A stretch of 64,000 nt of DNA from a virus (IMGVR_UViG_3300009687_000008:9144-73143), one strand, 5' to 3'. Numbered from the stretch's first letter, positions 2,957-10,772 are shown. Numbers and translations: made by a program. The notes: a model not told the origin generated them from the letters alone.

Positions 2957-3120
2957 TTTTTTCTAATTAATTCATATATTATGTGAAGTGGCCATAATGT
3001 TACTATCATTAATGAACCAATCACGTTTTCTGATTGAATCTTCCTCTTATTTGAGAAGTAGTTCAACCAAATAATCCCTAAAAGGACATATAACGTCCAT
3101 ATTCCAAATAATTTTATCAT
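2953..3120 (-). CDS. Small two-TM membrane protein (55 aa, missing from ORF track)
   Basis: Hand-translated as MIKLFGIWTLYVLLGIIWLNYFSNKRKIQSENVIGSLMIVTLWPLHIIYELIRKK*. ATGA overlaps with both neighbours. Confidence 0.75.
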   Translation of the reverse strand: MIKLFGIWTLYVLLGIIWLNYFSNKRKIQSENVIGSLMIVTLWPLHIIYELIRKK

Positions 3121-3596
3121 ATATCTTTAATAATTTTATCTAAAATATCCTTATTATAAAGGTTATAAACGGGTATCTTTAAATCTTCAGCCATTCTTAA
3201 GGCTTGTCCCGTACCTCCTGTGGCTTTACCATCTTTAGTCCAACAAACAATAAAATCTGTGGGTGATTTCAAATCTAAACCTAACACTTGGTGACAGTTT
3301 CTAGCCATTAATTTTTTGGCTCCATAAGATAATCTACCCCAATTAGGGTGATATTTTTGAGCCATTTCAAAAGCTTCGGGTGTTGGATTGAAAAGTAGAG
3401 AAGTATTACCATTAAAACCCCTCCAAGGGAGATAAATTTCCTTCTTTTCAGCATGTTCTTCAAAGAAAGAGTCTGCTCCTGGTGCTCCACCTGACCTTAA
3501 AGTATAACCCTTTTTGTTTAAGTGTTCTACTATAGTTTTAATGTCATTCTTTAATTCAGTAGGTGTTTCTCTAGAACCAATGCCGGTATAAATCAT
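3117..3596 (-). CDS. SLOG superfamily (DprA/YspA-like) nucleotide-binding protein
   Basis: YTGIGSRETP, LRSGGAPGAD and GGTGQA motifs. Confidence 0.75.
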   Translation of the reverse strand: MIYTGIGSRETPTELKNDIKTIVEHLNKKGYTLRSGGAPGADSFFEEHAEKKEIYLPWRGFNGNTSLLFNPTPEAFEMAQKYHPNWGRLSYGAKKLMARNCHQVLGLDLKSPTDFIVCWTKDGKATGGTGQALRMAEDLKIPVYNLYNKDILDKIIKDI

Positions 3597-4090
3597 TAAC
3601 CTTTATTAAGAATTTCTATTTCTTTCTCTGTTAAACACTTCCTATCGTAATTGTTACGAGAAAGTTTATCTAAAATGTCGTTAACAGAATCATATTCTTC
3701 AACAATTGGTTCGGGTTTTCTTTTATTAACCCTTGTGAAGGTATTACCATTTGTTTCGTCGTAAATGGTGTTAGGATCGTTAATCATTTGTTTTTGAATA
3801 TCCATCATAGAATCCAACTCTTTTTTAACCTCAGGGAAAATACCTGTGTAGTATTTTGAAGGTAAGTTTACACCGTAAGATTCAGAATTTGTGATGTCAA
3901 AAACCATCATAGCTGGTCTATGAACCAATTTTTCATGTATTTCGGATGTTGAATAAGGGCTATAGAAAGTACAAATAAACATACCCTTACCGTCAACAAA
4001 ATTAACACCACTCTCACTGTCTGCAATGTGATTTAAGTCTTGGTCTATACCCATTGCTGTTCCAAGTATCACTAAAAGAAATCTGTTCAT
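3596..4090 (-). CDS. Hypothetical protein
   Basis: 164 aa ORF, preceded by both the GATATTTATA motif and a TATATTTG element. Confidence 0.6.
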   Translation of the reverse strand: MNRFLLVILGTAMGIDQDLNHIADSESGVNFVDGKGMFICTFYSPYSTSEIHEKLVHRPAMMVFDITNSESYGVNLPSKYYTGIFPEVKKELDSMMDIQKQMINDPNTIYDETNGNTFTRVNKRKPEPIVEEYDSVNDILDKLSRNNYDRKCLTEKEIEILNKG

Positions 4091-4100
4091 AGTTTTTATT

Positions 4101-4110
4101 TATAAATATC
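4101..4110 (-). promoter_or_regulatory. Recurrent upstream motif GATATTTATA
   Basis: Located 10 nt upstream of the ATG at 4090. Confidence 0.5.
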
Positions 4111-4127
4111 TACAACAAATATAATCA

Positions 4128-6503
4128 TTATCTTGAAAGAGTCAAAGAAGAAATGTTATTAACCTTTTCAATTGTTACTACATTAGTAGACCAATCCTTA
4201 ACAAGTGGATTATGTGTGATTAAAAAGATATTATCAAACATTTCAGAACACTTTTGGAAGAAATTACCTACTAGTTCTAAATTCTCATTTGCTACTTTAC
4301 CTAAAACTTCATCAAAAACGATAATATTTGGTTTAGGTAAGGAACTTATTCTAGATAAAACAACTCTTAAAGCTAAAGAACCTAAAGTTTTCTCCAAACC
4401 ACTACCCTCAGTTAACAAATAGTTAATTTTCTGTCCATTTTCATCTTCTTTCTCCAACAAGAAATCAACTTCTTGTTTAGAATTAATATCGACTGTTAAT
4501 CTAAAATTAGCCGAATCAAATAAAAGTCTATCCAATTCTGAATTAAGTAAAGGCATTACATTTTTCATGATTAATTTAGTAATACCATTCTTACCAACCA
4601 TTCTTGTGTATATTTCAAAAATAATCTTAACTTCTTCCTCTATCTTAATTGTTTTAATTAATTCCTTATTCTTGTTAATTGTGTCTTCAGACCTTTCGAT
4701 ATCGAATTTATTACGTTGGATTCTAGCATTTAGTTCGTCTTTCTCCCTATTAAGTCTATCTAACTTAGCGTTATAACCTAATATCTTGGAATCTAAATCT
4801 TTATTCTTCTCAATATTACCAACATTATCTTCATACTTCTTCTTAAGGTCTTTTTTCTCCTTAAGTTGTAGTCTCATATTTTCTATTTCAAGTTCAATCT
4901 TGTCAATCATGATAGATTTTCTATCATATTCATCAACCTTTTCTTTGATTTTATCTAATTTTTCAATTTCAGATTTGGCTTCCTCAATTTCAACGTCTAA
5001 TTCTTTAAGAATTTTATCCCATTCCTCCAAAGCTGTCTTATTTTTAGCAATTTCATCAGAATGATCAACATCTTTTAATGGTTGTTTACATAAAGAACAA
5101 AACTCACCTTCCTCTAAATTTTTAATTAACGACTCAACAGCCTCTTTTTTGATACTTCTATGACTTCTAGCAATGTTTAAATCACTTAATTGTTGTTTCC
5201 ACTCCTTATGTGTTTGAACATCGTATTCAATCTCAGTTAATTTATCAAATTCCTCTTTAAGGATATCGTATTTTTCCTTAGATTTCTTACCTTTTTCAGT
5301 TATAGCCTCAATTTCTCTATCAATATCTTCAGGTCTTAATCTAATAACTTCAGTATCAATTATAATTTTTTGAGACAAAAATGTTTCTTTAATACTGTTT
5401 GCCTCATTTATCTCAACTTTTAAGTCTTCTAACTTACCTTCACAGAAAGAAATATCAGAATTTAAATCATTAATCTTAACAACTAAAGTTTCAATTTCTT
5501 TGGTTAAATCGCCAGAGTTATATTGGTCTGATTTAAGGTTTTTAGCCCAAGCTGATTTAATTTCCTTAACAATCTCTTCTTTTTGTTCAATAACCTCTAA
5601 CCCAATAAACTTGGAAAGTAGTCTTCCTTTTTGTGTTGGTAGTGTGTGGATTAATTCTTCTAAATTATCGGATGTGGCAATAATAGTTAATAAGAAATCA
5701 TCAACATCACCGATAGATTTCTTAATAAAATCATCAGTTTCTCTACGTTGTTCACCCTCAAGATTTTGGATCGAACCGTCAGCCATTACCTTTTGGAAGT
5801 TCAAATCTGTTTTAACGTTATAACCTTCTTCACTTTTCTTTTTAGTTCTAGTTAAAATTCTTTCAATGATATAATCACCGCCATCAATGTTAATTTTACC
5901 TTTAACTCTAACAGTGTTTACATCCCTAAATTTGTTAAATACTTGTGCAGCAACCTTTGTTCTTGTTGTTTCATTAAAGAATAAGAACAGTAATAAATCA
6001 ACCGATAAAGCAGTCTTACCACCTTGATTGGCTGGGTTGGAAGAAATAGTTGTAATACCTCTTAAACCATCAAAAGAAAGTTTATTTCCATCACCGTAGG
6101 ATAAGAAGTTATCCCATTCAAGTTCTTTAATATACCAATTACGATAACGATATTCGATATCACGAACTTGTTTTAACTTATCATTAACTTTATCATCAAG
6201 ACGAAGTAACCTATCCCAATCTACCTCAATTTTATTACCATCTAACCATTCTTTGAACAATCTACGTTGGTAATTTGTGTCCATTACATTGTCAGCAATA
6301 GACATTTCAACCTGTCCATGTTCTGTATCGACCTTTTTAGGTTTAAAAATTACTTGGACTTTTTCTACAGAGTATTTCTGTGCAATATACTGTTCAATTC
6401 TTTTAACCCTATCTTTAGTATAGTTTTCAGGTGCATCTTCCCATACAACACGAACATGTGCTTTAGGTGGTATTATTACTTTTTGTTTTTCTTTAGTTGC
6501 CAT
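4128..6503 (-). CDS. sbcC: SbcC/Rad50/gp46-like ATPase with ~120 aa N-terminal extension
   Basis: IKELEWDNFLSY start of the ATPase lobe, Walker A NQGGKT, long coiled coil with CxxC hook (CSLCK), signature-like GSGLEK, Walker B IIVFDE, H-loop LITHN. Confidence 0.9.
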   Translation of the reverse strand: MATKEKQKVIIPPKAHVRVVWEDAPENYTKDRVKRIEQYIAQKYSVEKVQVIFKPKKVDTEHGQVEMSIADNVMDTNYQRRLFKEWLDGNKIEVDWDRLLRLDDKVNDKLKQVRDIEYRYRNWYIKELEWDNFLSYGDGNKLSFDGLRGITTISSNPANQGGKTALSVDLLLFLFFNETTRTKVAAQVFNKFRDVNTVRVKGKINIDGGDYIIERILTRTKKKSEEGYNVKTDLNFQKVMADGSIQNLEGEQRRETDDFIKKSIGDVDDFLLTIIATSDNLEELIHTLPTQKGRLLSKFIGLEVIEQKEEIVKEIKSAWAKNLKSDQYNSGDLTKEIETLVVKINDLNSDISFCEGKLEDLKVEINEANSIKETFLSQKIIIDTEVIRLRPEDIDREIEAITEKGKKSKEKYDILKEEFDKLTEIEYDVQTHKEWKQQLSDLNIARSHRSIKKEAVESLIKNLEEGEFCSLCKQPLKDVDHSDEIAKNKTALEEWDKILKELDVEIEEAKSEIEKLDKIKEKVDEYDRKSIMIDKIELEIENMRLQLKEKKDLKKKYEDNVGNIEKNKDLDSKILGYNAKLDRLNREKDELNARIQRNKFDIERSEDTINKNKELIKTIKIEEEVKIIFEIYTRMVGKNGITKLIMKNVMPLLNSELDRLLFDSANFRLTVDINSKQEVDFLLEKEDENGQKINYLLTEGSGLEKTLGSLALRVVLSRISSLPKPNIIVFDEVLGKVANENLELVGNFFQKCSEMFDNIFLITHNPLVKDWSTNVVTIEKVNNISSLTLSR

Positions 6504-7021
6504 TACTCTCCGTATAAATCTTTATCTTTCTTTTCTTGTGGAACCCATTTAATCACATCCTTAGGTTTATCACCAAAGGGGTTTGATGTGTCTATTCTAG
6601 GTTTATTACGATTCTTTTCAATCTCTAATAAATCCTCTAATCTTTGTATTTTTTGGTACAACTTACCAAGTTCACTTCCTGAAGTTTTTTCTTTCTCTAA
6701 TTTAAGTTCTTTCTCTAGTGTTTCTAGTTTTACTAATAATTCTTTAACTTGTGAATCGTCAGTAATAACTTTCTCAACAATCTTTTCAACAGGAACTTCT
6801 ACTACTTTCTCAACAATCTTTTCAACAGGAACTTCTACTACTTTCTCAACAATCTTTTCAATTTCTTTTTCAATAACTTGAGGCATGATTGGTGATGTAC
6901 CATATTTTTCAACATTAAAACCTTGTTTAACCATATTAAGTATAAATTGGTCTACATTGGTTATACTGTTCAATCTACAATAATCCCATATTTCGTTTTG
7001 TATATCCTTTGGTAATTCCAT
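6503..7021 (-). CDS. Hypothetical protein with EKIVEKVVEVPV repeats and coiled coil
   Basis: 172 aa ORF. The repeat is visible in both protein and DNA. Confidence 0.7.
   Translation of the reverse strand: MELPKDIQNEIWDYCRLNSITNVDQFILNMVKQGFNVEKYGTSPIMPQVIEKEIEKIVEKVVEVPVEKIVEKVVEVPVEKIVEKVITDDSQVKELLVKLETLEKELKLEKEKTSGSELGKLYQKIQRLEDLLEIEKNRNKPRIDTSNPFGDKPKDVIKWVPQEKKDKDLYGE
6768..6861. repeat. 36-bp in-frame tandem repeat, about 2.6 copies
   Basis: The unit ACTTTCTCAACAATCTTTTCAACAGGAACTTCTACT occurs at 6768 and 6804, with a partial copy at 6840. Confidence 0.95.
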
Positions 7022-7242
7022 TAAACTAACCTTTCTGACTCTGTTTCAATATCCTCAATTGATTTTATTTTAAAAGTGTAAAAGCCGTAGTCACTTTCAA
7101 TCTTTTTCAATTCATGTTTTCTTGTTGGAATATCCCAAATAACATAACCATGATTGTAAGGGTCTTCACCGAAGTCTTGTTGAATCATTGATGAAGGCAT
7201 TACAATTGGTGTTTTACGACAAATTTTAATTTTTTTACTCAT
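7021..7242 (-). CDS. SbcD/Mre11 internal fragment (last phosphoesterase motif region)
   Basis: IVMPSSMIQQDFGE...HGYVIWDI resembles the Y-x-GS-x-x-Q-x-x-FGE...GY motif that follows GDIH in SbcD/gp47 nucleases. Confidence 0.7.
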   Translation of the reverse strand: MSKKIKICRKTPIVMPSSMIQQDFGEDPYNHGYVIWDIPTRKHELKKIESDYGFYTFKIKSIEDIETESERLV

Positions 7243-7269
7243 TTTATATTTTATTTAATAATAACATAA

Positions 7270-7503
7270 TTAATTAATGAATTCAAACTCTTCTTCTCTT
7301 AACCTTAATTGTCTTCCTTCATCAGTTTCTACCCATTTAAAACCAGAACCAGAATCAAAATAATAATAAGCTAAAACACCTTTCAAATTATCATAATCGG
7401 TTATAATTTTAATACGTTTTTTCATTTTATATTGTGGTCTGTAATTCACTGAAACAACTTCCCAACCATTAGGTGTTATATCCCCTTCTTTATAATCTTT
7501 CAT
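7270..7503 (-). CDS. Hypothetical protein
   Basis: 77 aa ORF coupled by overlap to the upstream endonuclease. Confidence 0.55.
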   Translation of the reverse strand: MKDYKEGDITPNGWEVVSVNYRPQYKMKKRIKIITDYDNLKGVLAYYYFDSGSGFKWVETDEGRQLRLREEEFEFIN

Positions 7504-8339
7504 ATTATTAATTTTTTGTATCTATCATAATTTTTCATAAAGTTAATTACATGTTTAATATTGTTGTTATCACAAAATATTTTACATTGTTTGTGTTTTA
7601 ATAAAAAAATTTCCTCGTCTTCTATGAAACCTTTTACTTCCTCTATGACTTTATCACCGTTTCTATATTCTATGTAAAAATCAGGTACATATCGTTTTGT
7701 TTTACCGTTATGTTCATATTTTATAATAAAACCATGTTTTTTAGTCCAATAAATAACATTTTCGTCACCATCTAATTCAATCATTCTTTGTTTTTCCCAA
7801 GATGAATGATATTGTTCGTCTACCTTATTTTTATTATTAAAATAATACCCTCTTTCACAATTACCGTATGTATTATGATTACCACCAAGTATTCTATTAA
7901 CATTGGCTATAGAAATCTTTTCCCTACCTTCATCACTCATCATAGGGTAATGTCCGTTCTTTAGTTTATAATTTTCCCTACCTAATTGATTTTTAATTTT
8001 TCTATCCTCGCTAGACCAATGGTTTTTGACAGTCTCACTTATTTTTTTCTTTCTTTCATCACTGTGTTTACCCCAAGAATTTTTTCTACCGTAATTACCG
8101 TTGTTTTCACCTAATTGTGTGTATTTTTGCCAATCTGCTTGACACTCCCTCGAACAAAACCTTTTTTCTCTTGTTGAATTTTTTACATATGTTACTGTAT
8201 TGGTGCACCCAGTGTATTCACATTTTCTTATATCTCTCTCTAATTTTTTTATAGATTGTGCACATATTTTACCACAAAATCTTCTTTCTTTATGGTAGGT
8301 TTTAAATTCTTTTTGACATATTTCACATGTTTTTATCAT
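7500..8339 (-). CDS. Putative free-standing homing-type endonuclease: Zn-finger repeats, NUMOD3-like helices, TnsA-like PD-(D/E)xK domain
   Basis: CEIC...RFCGKIC and CEYTGC...FCSREC; HSDERKKKISE and MSDEGREKIS; SSWE...YVPDFYIEY...EEVKG. Confidence 0.75.
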   Translation of the reverse strand: MIKTCEICQKEFKTYHKERRFCGKICAQSIKKLERDIRKCEYTGCTNTVTYVKNSTREKRFCSRECQADWQKYTQLGENNGNYGRKNSWGKHSDERKKKISETVKNHWSSEDRKIKNQLGRENYKLKNGHYPMMSDEGREKISIANVNRILGGNHNTYGNCERGYYFNNKNKVDEQYHSSWEKQRMIELDGDENVIYWTKKHGFIIKYEHNGKTKRYVPDFYIEYRNGDKVIEEVKGFIEDEEIFLLKHKQCKIFCDNNNIKHVINFMKNYDRYKKLII

Positions 8340-8351
8340 ATTTTTTTATTA

Positions 8352-8361
8352 TATAAATATC
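8352..8361 (-). promoter_or_regulatory. Recurrent upstream motif GATATTTATA
   Basis: Located 12 nt upstream of the endonuclease ATG at 8339. Confidence 0.55.
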
Positions 8362-8382
8362 ACCAAACAAGACAAAATAAGA

Positions 8383-9045
8383 TTAATCACAAAGAACCCA
8401 ACCGTTATGTAAATAATGACTTAACATAGATTCATCAATTTCTCTTTCTTGTGTTAAATAAGTACAACTATATTTGTGGATATCACCACACATAACCAAA
8501 TCACAACCTTCGAATATGGATATGTCTTTACCATCTTCAAACTCAAATCCAACAGCCGTTTTAAGACCAATTAAAGGATCGTGATACAAACCAATATAAG
8601 ATACTTCTTCACCGTATAATTCTCTTGCCTCTTCTATATTAGGTCTCTCAGAACCTTCCATATGTCCGTATACACACCAAACCACATTTTCATCTTTATA
8701 TGTTCCTGTGTGTTTTAAAAACATTATATTAGGATTATCCATAGTAGAAATGATGGGTGTTAAAGCATCCATTCTATCCAAATTGTTAGCCAAGAAATCG
8801 TGATTACCCAACGTAATAATAGTCTTTGCTATCTTAGAACATTTATTTAAAAAAGTGGTAACCATATAGATAAGTTCGGGTGTCATTTGATTCTTAGAAT
8901 GAACCAAATCACCTACAATAACAATTCTATCAGGTTTCAATTCCTCACATTCTTTGTAAAACTTCTCAAACTGTTCTGTATATTCTTCATGTCTTTTAAA
9001 AAGACGTAAGTGGATGTCTGCTGTATGTACTACTTTATTAATCAT
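8383..9045 (-). CDS. sbcD: SbcD/Mre11/gp47-like metallophosphoesterase, N-terminal part
   Basis: HTADIH, VGDLVH, GNHD, GLYHDP and CGDIH motifs. The ORF ends about 25 aa after GDIH. Confidence 0.88.
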   Translation of the reverse strand: MINKVVHTADIHLRLFKRHEEYTEQFEKFYKECEELKPDRIVIVGDLVHSKNQMTPELIYMVTTFLNKCSKIAKTIITLGNHDFLANNLDRMDALTPIISTMDNPNIMFLKHTGTYKDENVVWCVYGHMEGSERPNIEEARELYGEEVSYIGLYHDPLIGLKTAVGFEFEDGKDISIFEGCDLVMCGDIHKYSCTYLTQEREIDESMLSHYLHNGWVLCD

Positions 9046-9350
9046 ATAAAACTAAGTTTAGTTATTTTTTCTATCGGTCTAAAGTCTTTGGATTTGAAAA
9101 CATCGGGGAATTGTCTTCTGATTTCCATTCTAACTAATTCTCTAAGTGTTTCAACGTGATGGTCATAAGTTAACCCATAAGCTTGTAAATCATCAGTTAA
9201 CTCTGGTGTTAATTTTATGTTTGTTTTTCTAACACCGTATCTGTCTTGGAACATAACAAATTTCATTGGTACAAAAGTAAAAGCATCATACACAGTTGGT
9301 GATGTGGAAAACCCATATTGAGCGAACTCATTTAAAAACCATTCTTCCAT
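9042..9350 (-). CDS. Small protein with a T4 gp23-like capsid peptide
   Basis: RKTNIKLTPELTDDLQAYG...ETLRELVRMEI resembles the gp23-family RxLKAxW(T/S)xELAQDLxAxH...ELxxILxxEI segment. Confidence 0.55.
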   Translation of the reverse strand: MEEWFLNEFAQYGFSTSPTVYDAFTFVPMKFVMFQDRYGVRKTNIKLTPELTDDLQAYGLTYDHHVETLRELVRMEIRRQFPDVFKSKDFRPIEKITKLSFI

Positions 9351-9351
9351 A

Positions 9352-9825
9352 TTATAATCTATGTTTTTTCATAAATTTTAGTGGTTCAATAGGTCCGTTA
9401 ACTGAATCAACATGGTTATCGTTCCTAAATCTAGGTCCAACCATTTCACTATATACACTAAGTAATTCAGCTTCGACATCTATACTAGCGTAAACATTAA
9501 GGTCAGACCTTAATGCCATAGCATTATCACCGTTCCACCAAGTTTTAAATTCATCTAAAACTCTTAAGGGATTAACACCACCGTGAAAAATGTAACTATC
9601 GTCTTGCCAATTATTTTCACTCTCAACACATATCCTACGTAATAGTGGGAATATTAGTACTTCTATTTGACCATAATCACGTTGATAATTTGGTTGGTCC
9701 TGAATAGTAAGTAGATGTCTAGCTAAAATCTCAAATTTTAAAGCCATACGTGTTTTATGAAAATCACTTAGTTTAACTAAAAGACCAGTTACCTCCCAAT
9801 TACCCACTAATAAATTTAAATCCAT
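9352..9825 (-). CDS. Small protein with a T4 gp23-like capsid peptide
   Basis: LRSDLNVYASIDVEAELLSVYSEMV matches the gp23-family LAQDLxA(Y/V)HxxDAEAELxxILSE motif. Confidence 0.65.
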   Translation of the reverse strand: MDLNLLVGNWEVTGLLVKLSDFHKTRMALKFEILARHLLTIQDQPNYQRDYGQIEVLIFPLLRRICVESENNWQDDSYIFHGGVNPLRVLDEFKTWWNGDNAMALRSDLNVYASIDVEAELLSVYSEMVGPRFRNDNHVDSVNGPIEPLKFMKKHRL

Positions 9826-10772
9826 TATACTTTTTGTTTAATATTATCTAACCTCTTATAAGCCCATCTTTCCTTCCAATGGTTGACCAAAGTGTCAACA
9901 CTTAAATCATATGGTTTAAGTTCTTTATCGATACCTTTTAAGAATTCGGATGTATTCTCACCTCTATCACACCAATAAATCCCTCTACGATTACCGTGGG
10001 TTGTTAAGGTTCTAGCATCAATTCCTAAATAATCACTTGCTTTTCTAATGATATTAATTCTTGAATTTTTACCACTAGTAAACTGACCACCAGGTATTTC
10101 ACCCTCTTCCTCTTCCACCACCAACCTCATCTGTTGATAAAGCCCTTCATCAATTTGAACAGTTCCCTGTCCTTGGGTTAATCCAAGATATTTGAAATGT
10201 TTCAGTCGGTTATACTGTACTCCTCTACCATATAAAGAAGTTACTGTTAAACCAGCCAATTCATCATTATATTTTTCTTTCCAATGGTTAGCAACAACAT
10301 CAGAAGCAGCTAATAGTGTTAATAATTTACCCCCACACATATTATAACCAAAATGTCTTGTTGGTACACAAACCGAAATGTTTGCGATATTACGATTCCT
10401 CAAAACTCTATCATTTTTATCCCAACCAATATGTCTATCTCTAGGTCCTAGAGCTAAAAAATCGGCAGCTATATCCAAAATACCTAAATTCTTTTCATCG
10501 TAAGCATTCTTAACTAAGAAATAATTGTTACGACCTGGACTTCGTCTAAACGGAAAAGAAGATACATGTTCTTCAATACTTTTCCATTCTCTCCATAATT
10601 TACTTGTAGAATCAACAGGTATTAAAATCGGTTGGATATTGTTTGGGTCTTCAACCACACTCTCACCAATCCATATAGGATCATACTTTTTAACCTGTCT
10701 ATCTTTTTGTTCTTCTTGACTTAAAAACTTAAAGTTTAACAAGTCGTGTTTAAGTTGTTCTCTATTTACCAT
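9825..10772 (-). CDS. DruA/DUF4338-family protein (copy 1)
   Basis: PGRNNYFLV...LGPRDRHIGW...VPTRHFGYNMCGGKLLTLLA...TVTSLYG...QYNRL...YLGLTQG. Confidence 0.72.
   Translation of the reverse strand: MVNREQLKHDLLNFKFLSQEEQKDRQVKKYDPIWIGESVVEDPNNIQPILIPVDSTSKLWREWKSIEEHVSSFPFRRSPGRNNYFLVKNAYDEKNLGILDIAADFLALGPRDRHIGWDKNDRVLRNRNIANISVCVPTRHFGYNMCGGKLLTLLAASDVVANHWKEKYNDELAGLTVTSLYGRGVQYNRLKHFKYLGLTQGQGTVQIDEGLYQQMRLVVEEEEGEIPGGQFTSGKNSRINIIRKASDYLGIDARTLTTHGNRRGIYWCDRGENTSEFLKGIDKELKPYDLSVDTLVNHWKERWAYKRLDNIKQKV

What the first reader, a model, noticed from the sequence alone, without database searches (positions are those of the whole stretch)
4128..9045. Mre11-Rad50 (SbcCD) locus broken into three pieces, with unrelated genes inserted at the breaks
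Seen: the nuclease N-part (8383-9045) stops about 25 aa after GDIH. The next conserved motif (PSSMIQQDFGE...HGYVIWD) is in a separate 73 aa ORF (7021-7242), 1.1 kb downstream, after an endonuclease gene and a small ORF. A repeat-protein gene then precedes Rad50, whose first ~120 aa (6145-6503; VRVVWED...helical segment) lie before the normal ATPase start. Inference: that extension is the Mre11 cap and Rad50-binding region, so an ancestral Mre11 or Mre11-Rad50 fusion has been split and reassembles in trans. Established precedent: phage Aeh1 nrdA is split by the mobE endonuclease gene yet remains functional.
Basis: partly seen in the sequence, partly recalled or inferred. Interest (0 to 1): 0.75.

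Follow-up and report, generated by a model that had tools for sequence, protein, structure and literature searches.

The report
Three-piece phage Mre11-Rad50 repair nuclease
A giant phage encodes its DNA-end-processing enzyme, a single Mre11-Rad50 chain in related phages, as three separate proteins: one break is an old, clade-wide split and the other holds a mobile endonuclease gene, a type of split first reported in 2009.

Summary
The three pieces align end to end with single-chain Mre11-Rad50 proteins of about 1050 aa, which are common in phages.

Break 1 lies after motif V (GDIH), inside the nuclease core. It is a 1251-nt insert carrying a TnsA-like PD-(D/E)XK endonuclease gene. Close relatives have an uninterrupted Mre11 gene of 262-274 aa. 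The insert adds a 28-aa acidic tail to piece 1 and an 8-aa basic head to piece 2. Tail, endonuclease and head move together between phages. In some single-chain relatives, tail and head form one uninterrupted small module. This fracture was reported by Dassa et al. 2009 (PMC2677866), and this scan has found it on other DNA.

Break 2 is old and shared by the whole clade. It falls in a loop of the Mre11 capping domain, so the rest of the cap and the Rad50-binding helices sit on the N-terminus of Rad50. I found no published description of it.

No intron or intein was found. All pieces are under purifying selection. A complex model supports strand pairing between the 73-aa piece and the Rad50 extension.

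Verdict: a new variant of a known kind. Assembly in trans is inferred, not shown.

The parts
8383..9045 (-). Mre11 piece 1 (220 aa). Residues 1-192 are the nuclease core and hold all metal-binding motifs I-V (DIH, GDLVH, GNHD, LYH, GDIH). Residues 193-220 are the cassette-borne acidic tail.
   Evidence: Pfam Metallophos 7.2e-13 and phrog_100 2.8e-16. The motif residues are invariant in alignment A2. DNA homology to uninterrupted alleles ends at 8470.
7219..8469 (-). Inserted cassette of 1251 nt that replaces 15 nt (the QVMNH codons) of the uninterrupted allele. In order: tail codons and stop, endonuclease gene, orf77, then the start codon and head codons of piece 2.
   Evidence: blastn against uninterrupted relatives L004, L006 and L007 gives junctions at 8470/8469 and 7219/7218. 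Tail, endonuclease and head are less diverged from L008 than the flanking Mre11 sequence is.
7500..8339 (-). Free-standing endonuclease (279 aa). It has two CxxC...CxxxC modules, an LGENNGNYG segment and a C-terminal PD-(D/E)XK domain (PDF...EEVKG).
   Evidence: Pfam TnsA_N PF08722 6.8e-07, above its cut-off. NCBIfam restriction endonuclease and TnsA-like hits. Catalytic and Cys columns are invariant in 21 homologues. Every IMG/VR homologue that aligns over its full length at 38-86% identity (L125-L135) sits at the same Mre11 site. dN/dS against L008 is 0.21.
7270..7503 (-). orf77, a small ORF of unknown function and a variable passenger of the cassette.
   Evidence: No family hit. It is 100% identical in the sister contig (L003). 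L008 has an unrelated 99-aa ORF here, and other cassettes have nothing.
7021..7242 (-). Mre11 piece 2 (73 aa). It has an 8-aa basic head (MSKKIKIC, 7219-7242), then the last three strands of the nuclease core (PSSMIQQDFGE..HGYVIWD) and the first strand of the capping domain (DYGFYTFKI).
   Evidence: BLASTP to fusions 2e-10 and 8e-14. All invariant columns are kept. dN/dS against L008 is 0.09. Mapped on the model of fusion L068.
6503..7021 (-). orf172, a conserved companion gene. It has a small helical N-domain, VEK/VPVE repeats, a helical hairpin and a conserved C-terminal W...DLYGE peptide. Function unknown.
   Evidence: A homologue lies upstream of Rad50 in every split-type locus where that interval was read, directly before it in most. 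This includes loci with only 30-43% Rad50 identity. None lies within 3 kb of 80 fusion loci. AlphaFold: helices 5-17 and 23-40 at pLDDT about 90, residues 46-84 disordered.
6129..6503 (-). Rad50 N-terminal extension (residues 1-125). It holds the rest of the Mre11 capping domain (strand 14-21, helix 27-43, strand about 48-55) and a helix-loop-helix (about 76-113) equivalent to the Mre11 Rad50-binding domain.
   Evidence: Colinear with fusion residues of about 264-378. Fold of the fusion model and its matches to solved Mre11 structures. Mean column identity 78% across 16 clade members. Complex model.
4128..6128 (-). Rad50/SbcC ATPase proper. Read from the sequence: Walker A (ANQGGKT), CSLC zinc hook within the coiled coil, signature SGLEK, Walker B IIVFDE, H-loop ITHN.
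   Evidence: phrog_77 6.3e-44. BLASTP 1e-36 to the Mel-JY01 fusion. Motifs read in the translation.

Best explanation
This is the Mre11-Rad50 (SbcD-SbcC) enzyme of an uncultured jumbo phage. It belongs to a phage lineage in which the two proteins are normally one chain of about 1050 aa. Here it is made as three chains.

Chain A (220 aa) carries all catalytic metal ligands. Chain B (73 aa) supplies the last three strands of the nuclease core and the first strand of the capping domain. Chain C (791 aa) begins with the remaining cap elements and the Rad50-binding helices, covalently joined to Rad50.

The A|B break was made by a mobile endonuclease cassette. The cassette brings its own stop codon, start codon, an acidic 28-aa tail for A and a basic 8-aa head for B. 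Tail and head are the two halves of a small module that is one continuous stretch in some single-chain relatives. I infer that they clasp A to B without any splicing, as in phage Aeh1 NrdA.

The B|C break is an old split in a surface loop of the cap.

Shown: the anatomy, the colinearity, the mobility of the cassette, purifying selection on the pieces, and the absence of recognisable intron or intein features.

Inferred: assembly in trans, activity of the enzyme, and the order 'fusion first, then split'.
For: 1. Colinearity. Piece 1, piece 2 and Rad50 abut on single-chain fusions with no gap or overlap. The combined length of 262 + 790 aa is about that of a fusion.

2. Uninterrupted Mre11 ORFs of 262-274 aa occur in 15 relatives. 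Only the window, L008 and the sister contig are cut after GDIHKY.

3. Break 2 is in every clade member, with 1-6 different genes in the gap.

4. Fold. The fusion model has pLDDT 88.6. SbcD nuclease plus cap (7dog_A) aligns to residues 9-302 with Z 25.3, rmsd 3.0, 272 aligned. Plain phosphoesterases align only to about residue 243. Full Mre11 with its Rad50-binding domain (3tho_B, 6s6v_A) aligns to about residue 365.

5. Selection. Against L008, dN/dS is 0.10 for the piece-1 core, 0.09 for the piece-2 core and 0.08 for the Rad50 extension. dN against uninterrupted L007 (0.053) is no higher than between two uninterrupted alleles (0.057).

6. Cassette mobility. In L130 versus L131, tail, endonuclease and head are 96-100% identical in DNA while the flanking Mre11 is 60-76% identical. 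In the window versus L008, pS is 0.20-0.24 in the insert and 0.56-0.61 in the flanks.

7. The tail has the same length (29 aa after GDIHK; 30 in L135) in all HEG-bearing alleles. Its pN is below pS in most pairs, clearly so in the L126-L131 group. Net charge is -1 to -5 for tails and +4 to +6 for heads. Tail and head are continuous in fusions such as P0190 and P0127.

8. Complex model of piece 1 + piece 2 + Rad50 residues 1-125. Score 0.74, best of 3 controls 0.49. The mark was reached by 58 of 80 solved complexes and 2 of 110 mismatched pairs. The runs share at least 92% of their contacts and the partner's pLDDT is at least 61. Strand 14-21 of Rad50 pairs with strand 52-59 of piece 2. The 0.49 control kept piece 2, which is the real interface. 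Controls that replaced the partner scored 0.00-0.01.

9. A 96%-complete 318-kb relative has a single SbcD-like gene. SbcCD is near-universal in jumbo phages (PMC7824862).
Against: No experiment shows that the three chains associate or cut DNA.

The complex score may partly reflect the model's memory of solved Mre11 cap domains. The job also differed from its calibration: three chains, and my own alignments.

Tail-head contact itself was not scored.

Much of the purifying selection measured against L008 may predate the insertion.

The record is only 73 kb of a genome of roughly 320-380 kb, so a second intact Mre11 elsewhere in this genome cannot be excluded.

The tree is unrooted. The split clade is separated from all fusions by one branch, so the opposite order (split first, fusion later) is not excluded.
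Confidence: 0.8

Rival explanations
1. The endonuclease insertion killed Mre11. Pieces 1 and 2 are decaying remnants, and another nuclease does the work.
For: The break lies inside the catalytic fold. The record is a 73-kb fragment, so a second copy cannot be excluded. Relatives carry two other metallophosphoesterase genes.
Against: Neither piece has a frameshift or internal stop, and all invariant residues are kept. dN/dS is about 0.09-0.10. The same split, with conserved tail and head, persists in lineages with only 41-50% Mre11 identity. It also persists in the sister contig, which has lost this endonuclease. The other phosphoesterases belong to different families, phrog_1649 and phrog_547.
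Confidence: 0.06
2. The 1251-nt insert is a self-splicing intron, or the proteins are rejoined by an intein, so that one continuous Mre11 is made.
For: Phage homing endonucleases often live in group I introns or inteins. Dassa et al. 2009 found many fractured genes that carry split inteins.
Against: Rfam gives no group I or II intron match at E up to 10 in 3500-10000, and none at E up to 1 in 7 other loci with the same cassette. Non-coding DNA in the insert totals about 70 nt. Tail and head evolve as translated sequence, and the tail's stop codon keeps its position (one codon later in L135). The 28-aa tail plus 8-aa head are far too short for a Hint fold, and Pfam finds no intein hit.
Confidence: 0.03
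3. The order is reversed. The two-gene state (short Mre11, plus Rad50 carrying the cap and binding helices) is ancestral, and the single-chain proteins arose from it by fusion.
For: On the unrooted tree the split clade is one side of a single branch. Gene fusion by loss of a stop codon is easy.
Against: Cellular and T4-type Mre11 carry the cap and the Rad50-binding domain on the nuclease chain (structures). A state with half the cap on Rad50 therefore needs a fused junction first. With midpoint rooting the split clade nests inside the fusions, next to huge-phage fusions with support 96. Genes always lie between the two ORFs, which makes a direct fusion unlikely.
Confidence: 0.15
4. The endonuclease is no longer selfish. 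It has become a working partner of the Mre11-Rad50 complex.
For: It is under purifying selection (dN/dS 0.21). Homologues that align over their full length at 38-86% identity are found only at this Mre11 site.
Against: The cassette moves horizontally between diverged phages. Close relatives lack it. The sister contig has a different gene in its place. Earlier reports of this scan describe other cargo, or none, at the same fracture (not checked by me).
Confidence: 0.07

Closest known systems
'SbcD-like' fractured gene from Lake Gatun metagenome data (Dassa, London, Stoddard, Schueler-Furman, Pietrokovski 2009, Nucleic Acids Res 37:2560, PMC2677866)
   Same: Two ORFs matching the N and C halves of an SbcD-like nuclease with a free-standing endonuclease gene between them. 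There is no intein. Extra residues at the fracture (25 C-terminal and 9 N-terminal there; 28 and 8 here) are absent from uninterrupted homologues.
   Different: That endonuclease was Vsr-like. This one matches TnsA_N, with a canonical PD...E.K motif and no Vsr hit. That report was a single locus. It gave no evidence on selection or mobility, no link to single-chain Mre11-Rad50, and no second break.
Aeromonas phage Aeh1 nrdA-a / mobE / nrdA-b (Crona et al. 2011, PMC3045599)
   Same: An essential enzyme is split between two adjacent strands of its catalytic fold by a free-standing homing endonuclease. New C- and N-terminal tails arose with the insertion. The halves assemble without splicing.
   Different: A different enzyme and a different endonuclease family (HNH). 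Function and the need for the tails were shown at the bench there and are only inferred here. Here the tail-endonuclease-head unit is seen moving between phages, and the tails form a continuous module in some relatives.
Single-chain Mre11-Rad50 proteins of phages (phrog_35725; for example Microcystis phage Mel-JY01 WWT39521.1, annotated 'AAA domain containing protein')
   Same: The same domain order and full colinearity. Identity is 36% in the nuclease and 23-28% in Rad50.
   Different: One polypeptide instead of three. I found no paper that describes this fusion family.
Canonical SbcCD / Mre11-Rad50 / T4 gp47-gp46
   Same: Nuclease core, capping domain, helix-loop-helix Rad50-binding region and an ABC ATPase with coiled coil and zinc hook.
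   Different: There the chain boundary lies after the Rad50-binding helices. Here it lies inside the cap, and the binding helices are covalently attached to Rad50.

Membership tests
Mre11/SbcD nuclease | Calcineurin-type phosphoesterase motifs I-V with their metal ligands | tested here: met
   Pfam Metallophos 7.2e-13. D10, H12, D46, H49, N81, H82, H155, D188 and H190 are invariant in A2. All lie in piece 1.
Mre11/SbcD nuclease | Capping domain and helix-loop-helix Rad50-binding region after the core | tested here: met
   Tested on a colinear single-chain relative. The model aligns to SbcD nuclease plus cap through residue 302 (Z 25.3) and to full Mre11 with its binding domain through about residue 365. 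The window's equivalents are piece 2 residues 50-60 and Rad50 residues 11-113.
Mre11/SbcD nuclease | Core, cap and binding region on one polypeptide | tested here: not met
   Three ORFs with stop codons and intervening genes.
Rad50/SbcC ABC ATPase | Walker A and B, signature motif, H-loop, long coiled coil with a CxxC hook | tested here: met
   phrog_77 6.3e-44. Motifs read in the translation. Pfam gives only a sub-threshold SbcC_Walker_B hit at 0.0088.
Fractured gene made by a free-standing homing endonuclease (Dassa 2009; Aeh1 nrdA) | Endonuclease ORF between two halves of a conserved gene, with uninterrupted alleles in close relatives | tested here: met
   L004, L006 and L007 (82-89% Rad50 identity) have one ORF. 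The insert replaces 15 nt.
Fractured gene made by a free-standing homing endonuclease (Dassa 2009; Aeh1 nrdA) | Horizontal mobility of the insert | tested here: met
   The insert is far less diverged than its flanks in two independent pairs. The same cassette occurs in three distant lineages on the tree.
Fractured gene made by a free-standing homing endonuclease (Dassa 2009; Aeh1 nrdA) | Site-specific cleavage of the empty allele, and homing | not testable with these tools
   Needs enzyme assays or phage crosses.
Vsr-like homing endonucleases (Dassa 2009) | Vsr-type catalytic motifs and sequence similarity to Vsr | tested here: not met
   No Vsr family hit at E up to 0.1. The best hit is TnsA_N at 6.8e-07, with PDF...EEVKG. 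A 46-aa fragment that looks Vsr-like by eye lies beside the duplicated piece 2 in the sister contig, with no family hit.
Group I / II intron | Conserved ribozyme core | tested here: not met
   No Rfam match at E up to 10 in the window region, or at E up to 1 in 7 related loci. An undescribed intron type cannot be excluded.
Split intein | N- and C-intein blocks that form a Hint fold | tested here: not met
   The tail is 28 aa and the head 8 aa. There is no Hint or intein Pfam hit and no terminal HN plus nucleophile.

The most novel reading that the evidence does not exclude
The phage runs a natural three-chain Mre11. In it, a 73-aa mini-protein is an obligate adaptor. It completes the nuclease core on one side, held by a cassette-borne acidic/basic clasp. 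It completes the Rad50-borne capping domain on the other side by strand pairing. The orf172 family, found only with split-type loci, would then be a new accessory subunit of this re-partitioned complex.
Probability: 0.4. Interest if true: 0.65.

Novelty: new variant of a known kind. Interest (0 to 1): 0.5.

Why it matters
Mre11-Rad50 is a core recombination machine of large phages, and its chain boundaries are otherwise very stable.

This locus shows two ways an essential enzyme can tolerate being cut. One is a mobile cassette that supplies its own clasp peptides. The other is a split through a domain's beta-sheet that leaves the partner-binding helices covalently on the partner.

It offers a natural test case for protein-fragment complementation, and for asking what the Mre11 cap and the Rad50 tether actually need to be. 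It also extends the 'fractured gene' idea from one 2009 metagenomic read to a widespread, still-moving element.

Practically, annotation pipelines will miss or mislabel the 73-aa gene and the Rad50 extension.

Tried and rejected
- Megablast of the locus against phage records found nothing.
- An HMM of the Rad50 extension against PDB sequences gave only chance hits, so homology to the Mre11 C-terminus rests on fold and colinearity rather than sequence.
- Rfam searches for introns found nothing.
- A hairpin upstream of the endonuclease gene, as Dassa et al. describe, is not supported (z 0.12).
- Promoter-like sites occur at chance level and there is no terminator on the coding strand, so the scan says nothing for or against co-transcription.
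- My first idea, that the piece-1 tail aligned to native Mel-JY01 sequence, was dropped. The tail aligns instead to an extra module present in only some fusions.
- orf172: no informative family. Weak IMCp and repeat hits reflect its low-complexity repeats. I did not run a fold search on its small helical domain.
- Close-pattern search for the endonuclease found only L008's contig. A profile was needed to reach further.
- Literature searches for phage Mre11-Rad50 fusions found nothing relevant.

Full report
WHAT IS THERE

The window is 64 kb of a 73-kb virus record. Relatives reach 318-380 kb and are 96-100% complete by CheckV, so this is a fragment of a jumbo phage. GC content is about 30%.

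On the - strand lie six tightly packed ORFs:
- Mre11 piece 1: 8383-9045, 220 aa
- an endonuclease: 7500-8339, 279 aa
- orf77: 7270-7503
- Mre11 piece 2: 7021-7242, 73 aa
- orf172: 6503-7021
- Rad50: 4128-6503, 791 aa

Gaps between them are 43 and 27 nt, or overlapping ATGA/TAATG junctions. Family searches give Metallophos and SbcD-like for piece 1, TnsA_N for the endonuclease, and SbcC-like (phrog_77, 6e-44) for Rad50. Piece 2, orf77 and orf172 get nothing useful.

THE REFERENCE STATE IS A SINGLE CHAIN

The only phage-record hits for Rad50 were long ORFs of 1066 and 1202 aa that combine Metallophos with the Rad50 ATPase domains. Such fusions are common. There are 24 clusters in the protein database. 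At least 592 stretches occur in IMG/VR. They make up most of the best 150 representatives found with piece 1.

The three window pieces align to these fusions end to end:
- piece 1 to residues 14-215
- piece 2 to residues 215-261
- Rad50 from about residue 264 onward

FOLD

An AlphaFold model of the first 400 residues of fusion L068 has pLDDT 88.6. Its best matches are Mre11 structures. With VIA-align:
- SbcD nuclease plus cap (7dog_A) covers residues 9-302 (Z 25.3, rmsd 3.0, 272 aligned).
- Generic phosphoesterases stop at about residue 243.
- Full-length Mre11 bound to Rad50 (3tho_B, 6s6v_A) extends to about residue 365.

So the core runs to about 245, the cap is 246-302, and a helix-loop-helix occupies 326-361.

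Mapped back to the window, break 1 lies after motif V at about residue 198, inside the core. Break 2 lies at about residue 264, in the loop between cap strands 1 and 2.

BREAK 2 IS OLD

In 15 IMG/VR relatives (57-89% Rad50 identity), Mre11 is one ORF of 262-274 aa that ends at the same point. Rad50 carries the same extension, which has 78% mean column identity. Between them lie 1-6 variable genes, among them a Dda-like helicase, a Mom-like protein and a DUF2452 protein.

An orf172 homologue lies upstream of Rad50 in each of these loci, directly before it in most. The same holds in a more distant group with 30-43% Rad50 identity. No orf172 homologue lies within 3 kb of 80 fusion loci.

A FastTree of the nuclease-to-ATPase region puts all split-type loci in one clade (support 100). 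That clade is sister to huge-phage fusions (support 96) and sits among 105 fusions under midpoint rooting. The tree is unrooted, so the order of events rests mainly on the structural argument. Half a cap on Rad50 implies an earlier fused junction.

BREAK 1 IS A MOBILE CASSETTE

Homology to uninterrupted alleles stops at 8470 and resumes at 7218. That leaves a 1251-nt insert replacing 15 nt.

The endonuclease has intact PD-(D/E)XK residues and two Cys4 modules, conserved across 21 homologues. Every IMG/VR homologue that aligns over its full length (L125-L135, 38-86% identity) sits at the same site in Mre11. One of them is inside a single-chain fusion gene (L135). More distant partial homologues (L136-L145) lie in other settings.

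All eight split alleles measured carry a 29-aa tail after GDIHK (L135's is 30 aa). All carry a 12-14-aa head of the form MKKIKIKK..PI. Tails have net charge -1 to -5 and heads +4 to +6.

In L130 versus L131, tail, endonuclease and head are 96-100% identical in DNA, while the flanking Mre11 is 60-76% identical. In the window versus L008, pS is 0.20-0.24 in the insert and 0.56-0.61 in the flanks. So the unit moves horizontally, tail and head included. In most pairs, and clearly within the L126-L131 group, tail pN is below pS, which shows the tail is translated and constrained.

Tail and head are also present as one uninterrupted module, with no endonuclease, in some single-chain proteins such as P0190 and P0127, and in a 299-aa Mre11. 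This is the best indirect evidence that the two halves pack together.

ARE THE PIECES FUNCTIONAL?

- All invariant residues are kept.
- dN/dS is 0.08-0.10 for the piece-1 core, the piece-2 core and the Rad50 extension.
- The window lineage shows no excess dN relative to uninterrupted alleles.
- The split survives in the sister contig even though its endonuclease has been replaced.
- A near-complete relative has only one SbcD-like gene.
- SbcCD is near-universal in jumbo phages (PMC7824862).

The complex model of piece 1 + piece 2 + Rad50 residues 1-125 supports binding. Score 0.74, best of 3 controls 0.49. The mark was reached by 58 of 80 solved complexes and 2 of 110 mismatched pairs. The runs share at least 92% of contacts and the partner's pLDDT is at least 61. 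Strand 14-21 of Rad50 pairs with strand 52-59 of piece 2.

Caveats on that model:
- I used my own alignments.
- Three chains differ from the calibration set.
- Solved Mre11 caps may be remembered by the model.
- The 0.49 control retained piece 2, the actual interface.

NO SPLICING SIGNAL

No Rfam intron match was found in the window or in 7 related loci. Non-coding DNA in the insert totals about 70 nt. The tail and head are far too short for an intein.

WHAT IS ALREADY KNOWN

Earlier notes of this scan led me to Dassa et al. 2009, which I read. It describes one Lake Gatun locus with an SbcD-like gene fractured by a Vsr-like endonuclease. That locus has 25 extra C-terminal and 9 extra N-terminal residues. 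This is the same fracture.

Aeh1 NrdA/mobE gives the functional precedent: the tails there are essential for assembly.

The scan has also followed this fracture up on several other genomes, with various cargo. What those sources do not cover is this locus's second break, the resulting stand-alone 73-aa chain, the orf172 companion, and the TnsA-like occupant. First readers noted the 'shifted boundary' on other genomes, but no follow-up on it was shown to me.

VERDICT

This is a new variant of a known kind. Assembly in trans is likely but untested.

Noticed in passing
L027:6113-6943 (-) and L003:1368-2117 (-), sister contig IMGVR_UViG_3300015607_001128: A 97-98% identical relative carries two more endonuclease genes on the opposite strand. 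A LAGLIDADG gene sits at the 5' end of Mre11 and an endonuclease VII/HNH-type gene at the 5' end of Rad50. Each comes with a short duplication and a rewritten N-terminus of the host gene. The locus is a hotspot for selfish nucleases.
   Followed up: partly
L003:274-813 and L027:7726-8280: In the same sister contig, piece 2 is duplicated. One copy is a full 75-aa version at 74% identity, resembling another sublineage. The other is a 55-aa copy at 98% identity that lacks the head. A 46-aa fragment that looks Vsr-like by eye lies between them. The TnsA-like endonuclease is replaced by an unrelated gene of about 190 aa with unknown function.
   Followed up: partly
P0116 (942 aa Rad50 homologue, 69% identity in the extension): This relative's Rad50 has a sequence of about 150 aa inserted in frame in Walker A, after GGK. 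It starts with C and ends with HN followed by S, so it looks like a mini-intein.
   Followed up: no
window 6503-7021; homologues in L004-L026 and L126-L131: The orf172 family has an N-terminal domain of about 50 aa that is more conserved (52-55% identity) than Rad50 itself (30-43%) in distant loci. It also has VEK/VPVE repeats of variable length, a helical hairpin and a conserved C-terminal ...W...DLYGE peptide. The gene lies upstream of Rad50 in every split-type locus read, directly before it in most, and is absent near fusion genes.
   Followed up: partly
L140:2186-3013 and 3022-5499: A distant homologue of the endonuclease (30% identity over the catalytic half) lies directly upstream of an uninterrupted single-chain Mre11-Rad50 gene instead of inside it.
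   Followed up: no
L012:3322-4683, L025 and L026 (between Mre11 and Rad50): A Dda/RecD-like SF1 helicase gene (AAA_30 8.9e-20) occupies the gap of break 2 in some relatives. A Mom-like gene (2.7e-29) does so in L009.
   Followed up: no
window 3117-3596 (-): A 159-aa protein with GIGSRETP...GGAPGADS motifs, which by eye resembles a DprA/SLOG-type domain. It lies two genes downstream of Rad50.
   Followed up: no
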